Below are positions 56,201 to 58,131 of a DNA stretch of 64,000 bases, one piece after another. The translations under genes were made by a program, and so were the position numbers. The DNA is taken from positions 62,001 through 126,000 of the forward strand of contig NW_020845690.1 of NCBI RefSeq assembly GCF_003704095.1, written 5' to 3'. The notes below the pieces were generated by a model. The model made no database searches, had not been told where the DNA came from, and saw only the letters and a list, made by a program, of their open reading frames with translations. Within the stretch, counting starts at the first letter, position 1. Each line of letters begins with the position of its first letter. Source of the stretch: Pocillopora damicornis. Its lineage: Eukaryota.

Positions 56201-58131
56201 CTATGAAGCAAGGGTGATTTAATAAAGTAATCACCTTCTATTTCAGACCACCAAAGAGTTTAAGCAGATGGTCAGTTTACTAATACACACTGTAAAGACC
56301 CAGTCTCCCGAGCTAGCATTTCATGCAGCAGTGAGTCTTGGTCGATTGTGTGTGGTTGAACCAGTCTCAAAGATGTACCTCATCACCAGGCTTCCTGGGT
56401 TGTCTCCACGTGACAAGGGAGAGGTAAGAGTTTGACCTTTAAACAGAGGGAAAGATATAGCTTTTTATGCATTAAATCAAACTACTGAATAACCCATAGG
56501 AATATGTGGATTGGAATATTGAAACTATGAAACTCTTGAATGTAATTTGTTTTTTCCATAGGCATTGTACGTTTTGATTAAACAAATGAATTGTAAGGAA
56601 AAACTGGTTTTGGATGCGTTATTAGAACAGCTGAGTACGGCTCACAACTGGAAGGTGAGTTTGTCTCTTTATTTTCCATTCAACCCTATCGAGTTTATTA
56701 AAAGAATCGCTAAGGTTGTTCAATTCACCTACACGGACTCTAGAGATGTGTTTTCTTTGCGTGCCAACCTTAAGTGGTGAACCGTAAGTAAAACATGTCA
56801 TCAGCTTGATTTAAGGCGGGATAAACTAGGTCCCAGACCACTCACTTTAAGCGTAGGAAAAACGTGACACGCGCCTGTAAATATTGCAAAGAGCGTGAAA
56901 GTGCGTGTAGTAGCATTAACAAAAGGACACTTGTTGACAAGATGACTGTCAGTTTTAATAGAGCATGTTGCCTGAACTTCGCATTCTTAGGCAGCTTAAA
57001 AACCAAAACCTCAAGATATTCGGTAGGACAAACTGTCTGAATAAAAGTTGACACCGACTTTGTTTTCTCCCTTTGTTTGACAGCTAAGAATGGAAGCAGC
57101 TGATTTACTCATTTTTGTTGGTACGTGGAGATTTTGTTTCTTAATTTGTTTTCTTAAATAATCATTCAATCTTGTTCAAGTTCAATCATTTTTAAGCTAC
57201 AGAGAGTAGTTTGGACGTTGACTTAGTGGTTAAGCGTTACGTTTACGAAAAAACTGAAAATATTTGAGTTTCTCAGCGTCTATTGTTTGCTCAATTAGGT
57301 ACTATAGTTTGCTTAGCTGCGAACAAGACACTCGCACAAGATGTTTCAAGGATCATAGGAATGGCTAGGAATTGGAATGAGAACGGAAGTCCGTTTTTGT
57401 TTTTGCTTGGTTGCTGTAATCTTAACTCCTAAACTTCCTAGTAGCGAATTTTCAACCGCTGTTGAAGTTTGCCTTTCAGTTTAATTTTTATTTGGGAAAT
57501 TTCAGGACCAAGAGACGTCTTTAAAGTGAAAAGTTCGGATGAAGTGTTTGATACACTGGAAGAGCTTCTTTGGGATCACGCTAACAAGGTATACGAAGTT
57601 ATGAACTAAACAAATTAACAAATGTTTACTGCAGGAAGCATCGTTAAATAATATTGCGCATGAAAGCCTTTATAAAAACGTATTAGGGGGTTTAAACACG
57701 AGATTTTAAAAAGTGATAGTTAAAATTTTTCTGCTCGCTAGTCAAAATTGTTTAGTTTTGTTTCTTGGTGTTCCGCTTTGTAGGAATTGAGAAGTAAAGT
57801 GTCCGAAGCATTGAGCTCGCTTGGCTTGCGACAAAGAGCATGTCAACTGGTGCTAAGGTACATTTTAAATCTTGGAATTTTAAAATCTCTCGGACCTTTT
57901 CTCCGTCACATAGTAAAATTAGCTTAGTCATGTCCAGCTCTCTGTCCGTAGAGACAAACGAATAAGGGTGCCAGAGAAAATCGCCAGGGTCTAAGACAGG
58001 AGTAGCCCTATTTCTCTCTTCCCTCTTCTGCTCTGACGAAGGGATAACGCTCGAAACGTCAGCCTTTCAGCTCTTTACAGTGGTCAATTTACGTTTTCAA
58101 CTCAGTTGTTAGCACTAAATTGCCTGCTATA

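What the first reader, a model, noticed from the sequence alone, without database searches (positions are those of the whole stretch)
58030..58063. Near-intact minimal hammerhead ribozyme, sense-oriented in an intron of the HEATR9-like gene
Seen: CUGACGA and GAAA core boxes, a GUC cleavage triplet, a 3-bp stem I (GCU/AGC), stem II GGG(A)/(G)CUC and a loopless palindromic stem III (ACGU). Known: this is the layout of minimal type I hammerheads in Penelope-like retroelements and non-LTR retrozymes, which cleave poorly as monomers and better as dimers. Inference: it is transcribed within the host pre-mRNA and could cut the intron, but the other two copies have GGGCT where this one has GGGAT, which weakens stem II.
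Basis: partly seen in the sequence, partly recalled or inferred. Interest (0 to 1): 0.7.

Follow-up and report, generated by a model that had tools for sequence, protein, structure and literature searches.

The report
Decayed Penelope hammerhead in an intron
This small self-cutting-RNA motif is really there, but it is a worn, lone end-piece of a very common Penelope-type jumping gene whose ribozyme motif is already described from a coral, and it likely does not cut the host gene's RNA.

Summary
The motif is real (58030-58063, + strand) and lies in a 659-nt intron spliced in 4 of 4 RNA runs. It is the first 34 nt of a 151-nt, 5'-truncated end of a Penelope-like element (PLE). The core has 685 exact genomic copies, and one copy follows an RT + GIY-YIG frame directly. 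The family motif is printed for Acropora digitifera in the supplement of PMC4209133. This copy is solo, carries a private C-to-A change costing 3.3 kcal/mol in stem II, and is predicted to fold into an inactive hairpin. The two other window copies lack the GAAA box and lie on the other strand. Copy-specific RNA contigs run through the cut site in 2 of 4 runs. Family anatomy: 71 of 98 copies begin at the 5' edge of the intact ribozyme and 3 at the cut site; all 73 back-to-back pairs have one short and one longer arm. This fits copying from uncut RNA at two start sites. The scan noted similar PLE stubs before in other genomes. Ordinary; low interest.

The parts
58030..58063 (+). Minimal type I hammerhead motif (PLE min-HHR): stem I 58030-32/58061-63, core 58033-39, extra A 58040, stem II 58041-52, GAAA 58053-56, palindromic ACGU 58056-59, C17 58060
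   Evidence: stems covary across three families in this genome; family motif printed for Acropora digitifera in the PMC4209133 supplement
58044..58044 (+). Private C-to-A change that removes the loop-closing pair of stem II
   Evidence: C in 29 of 29 best copies and 55 of 56 downstream-anchored copies, A in none; isolated stem II -0.9 vs -4.2 kcal/mol
58060..58061 (+). Predicted cleavage site (after GUC); bridged by copy-specific RNA contigs 57828-58106
   Evidence: runs X1 and X2, 0 differences
58030..58180 (+). 151-nt 5'-truncated 3' end (pLTR part plus tail) of a high-copy Penelope-like element; solo, no inverted arm, no clear target-site duplication
58125..58180 (+). PLE tail: the about 50 nt between the two preferred 3' ends of the family (about 58122-35 and 58176-86)
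57858..58516 (+). Host intron, 659 nt, GT..AG
57784..57857 (+). Upstream host exon
58517..58568 (+). Downstream host exon
37125..37215 (-). Older copy of the same family; 3' strand of stem II and GAAA box lost
7892..7950 (-). Internally deleted copy: first half of the motif joined to the tail

Best explanation
The motif is the 5' end of a 151-nt, lone, mutated fragment of the 3' end of a high-copy Penelope-like retroelement that sits in a host intron, and it is likely a passenger that rarely or never cuts the pre-mRNA. In the parent element the hammerhead lies about 100 nt after the stop of an RT + GIY-YIG frame (shown). The element's protein likely nicked DNA and reverse-transcribed uncut element RNA from one of two internal start sites (about +95-100 or +150 from stem I) back to an RNA end just 5' of the ribozyme, leaving a stub with an intact motif (inferred from copy ends and from PMC11167929). 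This copy used the far site. Cleavage would need a second motif to pair the ACGU palindrome and likely the element's protein. This copy has no partner, has lost a stem II pair, and is predicted to fold with its core paired to its own cut site.
For: Shown: 685 exact core copies, control 0. 26 of 30 loci with the frame's last codons have the motif 98-104 nt further on. L062/L084 holds RVT_1 (E 3.4e-7, above cut-off), GIY-YIG (E 3.1e-4, just under cut-off; E 1.3e-4 at cut-off in L044), then the motif and 150 nt at 90.7% to this copy. DKG, YIDD and a CX4CxxC linker are visible in translations. Inverted arms, a one-sided tail and target-site duplications of 9 nt or more in 50 of 73 pairs, null 8 of 2154. 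Family motif published as PLE-associated. Predicted: monomer MFE is the trap hairpin, -9.0 vs -2.3 kcal/mol for the open form, stem I probability 0.02-0.04; ACGU duplex -1.7. RNA contigs with this copy's private letters cross the cut site in X1 and X2; the upstream intron has no cover in X1. 3 of 98 copy 5' ends fall at the cut site, at background rate. Literature: single min-HHR showed no cleavage (PMC4209133); a PLE hammerhead cleaved only with the PLE protein and uncut RNA was the template (PMC11167929).
Against: No cleavage assay. Contigs show presence only: not strand, level or ends, so a cut fraction is not excluded, and 2 of the 4 RNA runs list no bridging contig (table cut). All core letters of this copy are intact, while 13 of 56 copies have a damaged core. 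The A variant is shared by at least 2 of 3 DNA-like runs, so the insertion has persisted. Nearest-neighbour energies ignore core tertiary contacts and Mg2+. No copy with a sense 5' pLTR joined to the frame's N-terminus was found (0 of 7; none among 19 loci), so which RNA templated the stubs is not shown. No target-site duplication is visible at this copy (best 7 nt).
Confidence: 0.87

Rival explanations
1. The motif cuts the host intron co-transcriptionally, alone or by pairing in trans with one of the many other transcribed copies, and so affects host mRNA output.
For: Core intact and in sense orientation. Family sequences are abundant in RNA contigs, so trans partners exist. The element's protein could assist, as for the anole PLE.
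Against: Solo copy, weak stem II, trap hairpin, 4-bp trans helix of -1.7 kcal/mol. The intron is spliced in 4 of 4 runs and bridged uncut in 2 of 4. No cut-site ends among genomic copies above background.
Confidence: 0.06
2. It is a dispersed monomer of a non-LTR retrozyme that spreads through a small circular RNA.
For: Type I hammerhead in a short non-coding repeat. Monomers of retrozymes are common and PLE-derived (bioRxiv 10.64898/2026.07.22.740005). Rare head-to-tail joints occur in DNA-like runs.
Against: No unit-length tandem in the fetched loci: same-strand spacings were 236-1843 nt and irregular. Coral retrozymes have canonical hammerheads in 220-240 bp tandems (PMC7229834). The sequence is collinear with a PLE frame end.
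Confidence: 0.04
3. The 150-nt stubs form a SINE-like family of their own: solo or back-to-back stubs are transcribed from a start just 5' of the ribozyme and are copied in trans by the PLE protein, rather than being by-products of the full-length mRNA. This concerns origin only and is compatible with the copy being inactive.
For: Sharp 5' wall: 71 of 98 ends at -12..+9 and none at -100..-13. Frame-bearing copies are few (5 of 98) and no full-length copy with a 5' pLTR was found.
Against: No short-only subfamily was shown; short and frame-linked copies are about 90-100% alike. No transcript start data. No excess G at the junction that would mark a copied cap (4 of 40 solo, 5 of 20 and 4 of 26 paired).
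Confidence: 0.25
4. The host has co-opted the stub to favour retention of this intron, independent of cleavage.
For: Intron 57858-58516 is covered by contigs in X1 (depth 32.7 and 15) while three other intron stretches have none.
Against: Another intron (56655-57083) is also covered in X1 and X3. Contig depth cannot rank retention. About 10% of the stub's positions differ from the family majority (15 of 151), which fits drift.
Confidence: 0.04

Closest known systems
Minimal hammerheads (min-HHR) of metazoan PLEs; Acropora digitifera entry in the supplementary alignment of Cervera and De la Pena 2014 (PMC4209133; parts 1-2 of 4 read, supplement passage seen)
   Same: The printed A. digitifera row has the same stem I, core, extra A, stem II, loop and cut triplet as this family (the GAAA letters are missing from the extracted text), a near-identical upstream flank, and the mark for PLE association. 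Mostly single motifs from truncated PLEs; pairs on opposite strands.
   Different: This copy has A for C at the top of stem II and has lost the upstream flank; it is solo in an intron.
C-terminal EN+ Penelope-like elements with a CX2-5CxxC linker (Neptune or Nematis clades; Craig et al. 2021, PMC8557442, passages)
   Same: RT then GIY-YIG, DKG motif, cysteine linker, 5' truncation, inverted 5'-truncated arm, one-sided tail, hammerhead in the pLTR.
   Different: Tail is about 50 nt, not 30-40. Clade not placed on a tree. No intact full-length copy found.
PAc Poseidon element of Anolis carolinensis (Frangieh et al. 2024, PMC11167929; parts 1-2 of 4 and passages)
   Same: Two reverse-transcription start sites bounding the tail; uncut RNA as template; no ends at the hammerhead cut site.
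   Different: There the hammerhead overlaps the start codon and the pLTR-ORF junction is known; here that junction was not found. Different clade.
Metazoan non-LTR retrozymes (PMC7229834, passages; bioRxiv 10.64898/2026.07.22.740005, part 1 of 5 and passages)
   Same: Short non-coding repeat with a type I hammerhead; PLE kinship.
   Different: No tandem arrays, minimal rather than canonical motif, collinear with a PLE frame end; no circle shown.

Membership tests
PLE minimal type I hammerhead (min-HHR) | CUGANGA and GAAA boxes with an NUH triplet | tested here: met
PLE minimal type I hammerhead (min-HHR) | Extra nucleotide between 9 and 10.1; G10.1-C11.1 pair; palindromic 15.2-16.2 with no loop 3 | tested here: met
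   A58040, G58041-C58052, ACGU 58056-59; features listed in PMC4209133
PLE minimal type I hammerhead (min-HHR) | Stems I and II supported by compensatory change | tested here: met
   11 hand-picked rows of related families: 90.9% of 77 cells paired, 5 of 7 pairs with change on both sides, cells measure 0 of 500 shuffles, pair-count measure 178 of 500; slid controls 19-43% paired. Rows are related, so this is not a probability.
PLE minimal type I hammerhead (min-HHR) | Located in the pLTR of a PLE | tested here: met
PLE minimal type I hammerhead (min-HHR) | Self-cleavage as dimer or with protein help | not testable with these tools
   Only folding energies and contigs were available
EN+ Penelope-like element (parent family) | Single frame with RT followed by GIY-YIG endonuclease | tested here: met
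   L066 has RVT_1 (E 1.1e-6) and GIY-YIG (E 0.0026) in one 432-aa open stretch, both under Pfam cut-off; L062 has both across a frameshift
EN+ Penelope-like element (parent family) | Direct or inverted pLTRs, 5' truncation, one-sided tail, target-site duplication | tested here: met
   73 back-to-back pairs, each with one short arm; duplication of 9 nt or more in 50 of 73
EN+ Penelope-like element (parent family) | Full-length partial tandem with a 5' pLTR before the frame | tested here: inconclusive
   None found in 19 + 7 loci of the frame's N-terminal part; assembly has gaps
Neptune or Nematis clade | CX2-5CxxC linker between RT and EN; DKG motif | tested here: met
   Seen in translations; definition
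Neptune or Nematis clade | Placement on an RT tree with reference PLEs | not tested
   No reference PLE proteins were fetched
Non-LTR retrozyme | Head-to-tail tandem repeats with one hammerhead per unit | tested here: not met
   Same-strand spacings 236-1843 nt, irregular, in all fetched loci; only rare go-back joints in contigs
Non-LTR retrozyme | Circular RNA intermediate | not testable with these tools
   Only assembled contigs were served

The most novel reading that the evidence does not exclude
The stubs record the PLE insertion step at genome scale. A protein dimer nicks both strands about 13-14 nt apart, primes one strand at the near start site and the other at the far site of uncut RNA, both cDNAs run to an RNA end just 5' of the hammerhead, and their ends are joined. 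That would make the one-short, one-long rule (73 of 73 pairs) obligatory, place the RNA 5' end at the ribozyme's edge, and make the hammerhead a 5'-terminal, protein-switched element rather than a routine cutter.
Probability: 0.4. Interest if true: 0.5.

Novelty: already known. Interest (0 to 1): 0.17.

Why it matters
The locus itself matters little: it is one of hundreds to thousands of PLE stubs, and its ribozyme motif is in print from a coral. It is a caution against reading sense-strand intronic minimal hammerheads as host regulators. The family's end statistics bear on an open question, what PLE hammerheads do and how head-to-head insertions form, and offer a compact substrate (about 155 nt, two start sites) for a biochemical test.

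Tried and rejected
Rfam: 0 hits at gathering over the window, no hammerhead at E<=10 over 57800-58400; the minimal form is not recognised. Other window copies as dimer partners: rejected, both lack GAAA and are on the minus strand, 21 and 50 kb away. Retrozyme array: rejected. Pile-up of copy 5' ends at the cut site: not seen, 3 of 98, hazard 0.49% per nt vs 0.51-0.59% beside it (3 of 101 segments dropped because they abut N gaps). Copied-cap G at the 5' junction, a lead from e1-8620640: no excess. Target-site duplication at this copy: none of 9 nt or more. The 96 nt upstream as a second repeat: single copy. Full-length element with a 5' pLTR: not found. Lunse et al. (RNA Biol 14:1499) is not held; I saw only its title and a review's summary. 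The supplement of PMC7229834 could not be read; it lists 16 Acropora millepora hammerhead families and may include this one. The PMC11167929 supplement search gave no text hits; its Fig. S2 may already show the 5' wall. Parts without contig cover were not used as evidence of absence beyond the silent-stretch control.

Full report
Observation. A family pattern matches once with one mismatch, against 0 of 100 shuffles. Rfam does not recognise it. The host intron is 57858-58516: its GT..AG joint is in 4 of 4 RNA runs and the exons join in one open frame on the + strand, so the motif is in sense orientation. The gene name was not verified. The two other window copies keep only the first half of the motif and lie on the minus strand.

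What it belongs to. A genome search with 57960-58185 gave 2299 first-look candidates (40 scored); the best matches cover 58030-58180 at about 90-93%, and the 96 nt upstream are single-copy. The 28-nt core occurs 685 times exactly (control 0) and a looser form 1383 times (control 4). Some copies run upstream into a reading frame: 26 of 30 loci chosen by the frame's last codons have the motif 98-104 nt further on. That frame encodes RT followed by GIY-YIG, with DKG, YIDD and a CX4CxxC linker visible. Locus L084 has RT, endonuclease, motif and 150 nt at 90.7% to this copy in a row. So the finding is a 5'-truncated 3' end of an EN+ Penelope-like element, Neptune- or Nematis-like by the linker (definition from PMC8557442; no tree made). 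The family's motif and upstream flank are printed for Acropora digitifera, marked as PLE-associated, in the supplement of PMC4209133 (the GAAA letters are missing from the extracted text). The host is thus likely a stony coral (inferred, not established). No intact full-length copy or sense 5' pLTR was found.

Is the fold real? Across three hammerhead families in this genome the core is fixed while stems I and II change in compensation (11 hand-picked rows; 90.9% of 77 cells paired; 5 of 7 pairs changed on both sides). Within the family, core positions outside CpG differ from the majority in 12 of 560 cells (2.1%), against 85 of 1232 (6.9%) just downstream, mostly subfamily variants; 43 of 56 copies have intact boxes. 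Selection thus acts on the parent elements; nothing shows it on this copy.

Can this copy cut? Its A at 58044 is private: C in 29 of 29 best copies, 55 of 56 anchored copies, and the window is the only A among 155 contexts. Isolated stem II falls from -4.2 to -0.9 kcal/mol. For both this copy and the family form the predicted ground state pairs the core with the cut site (-9.0 vs -2.3, and -12.3 vs -5.6 for the open form; stem I probability 0.02-0.04), and in its flanks this copy loses stem II altogether. Stem III needs a second molecule through a 4-bp helix of -1.7 kcal/mol, and there is no intact same-strand partner in the window. RNA contigs 57828-58106 with 0 differences cross the site in X1 and X2, 2 of 4 runs; the upstream intron has no cover in X1, which argues against DNA there. 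Contigs give no strand, level or ends, so partial cutting is not excluded. Published tests agree: a single min-HHR did not cleave and dimers did so weakly (PMC4209133); the anole PLE hammerhead cleaved only with the PLE protein, was not needed for insertion, and left no RNA-seq ends at the site (PMC11167929). At least 2 of 3 DNA-like runs carry the same A at this locus, so the insertion is shared, not new.

How such stubs likely arise. I took the first 100 of 728 genomic matches to a 28-nt anchor 3' of the motif, giving 101 unique segments, 98 usable after dropping 3 that abut gaps. 71 of 98 begin within -12..+9 of stem I, none at -100..-13, 5 further upstream, and 3 at the cut site, which is the background rate. 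The 31 segments without a detected inverted partner show the same (17 at -5..+8, 0 at the cut site). 3' ends fall in two groups, about +95-100 and +150. In 73 back-to-back pairs, 70 have one short and one long arm, 3 one short and one intermediate, none two short or two long; 50 of 73 have a duplication of 9 nt or more (33 of 13-14 nt; null 8 of 2154). One-sided tails and inverted arms are known PLE features, and two start sites bounding the tail were shown in vitro. Inference: each nicked strand primes at one site on uncut RNA and the cDNAs stop at an RNA end just 5' of the ribozyme. A copied-cap G was not seen, and fold-back self-priming (PMC3846280) or a strong RT stop remain possible. The window copy is the solo, far-site form with no clear duplication.

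Novelty and verdict. The motif family is already in print, and the scan's earlier notes describe similar PLE stubs in this and other genomes (unchecked AI notes, not support). My paper searches did not list a report of the 5' wall or the strict short-long rule, but unseen supplements may hold it. The locus is an ordinary, decayed passenger: interest 0.17.

Noticed in passing
L259, L261/L264, L265, L260, L263 (G000 C2176, C3979, C4151, C1776, C2137), around locus position 1500: The longest copies of the element begin at two shared points: three independent loci a few nt before a splice-donor-like site and two at the AG after a pyrimidine tract 32 nt further on. This may mark a 5' UTR intron boundary; numbers are small.
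   Followed up: partly
window 58117-58125 and 58166-58176 and their family equivalents: Both preferred 3' ends of the family lie just after a TTACC motif, a possible recognition signal for the two start sites.
   Followed up: no
L240-L242, L246, L224; L067/L081: At least two further minimal-hammerhead families in this genome with longer or bulged stem II and different stem I.
   Followed up: partly
window 57858-58516 and 56655-57083: Both introns are covered by poly(A) RNA contigs while other introns of the gene are not in run X1; possible retention.
   Followed up: partly
contigs laid on window 58056-58151: Shorter variants join the motif to the tail through 12-29 other letters, suggesting related families with a short spacer.
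   Followed up: no
window 10107-10315, 26128-26293, 29935-30149, 39524-39738, 50943-51045, 58786-59007 and others: A second, older dispersed repeat family of about 200 nt in both orientations, including a 174-nt inverted pair at 10368-10916.
   Followed up: no
window 62500-62990 (-) and 42976-44180 (-): Exons of an actin gene and of a DEAD-box helicase gene, recognised by eye from translations (names recalled, not from a search).
   Followed up: no
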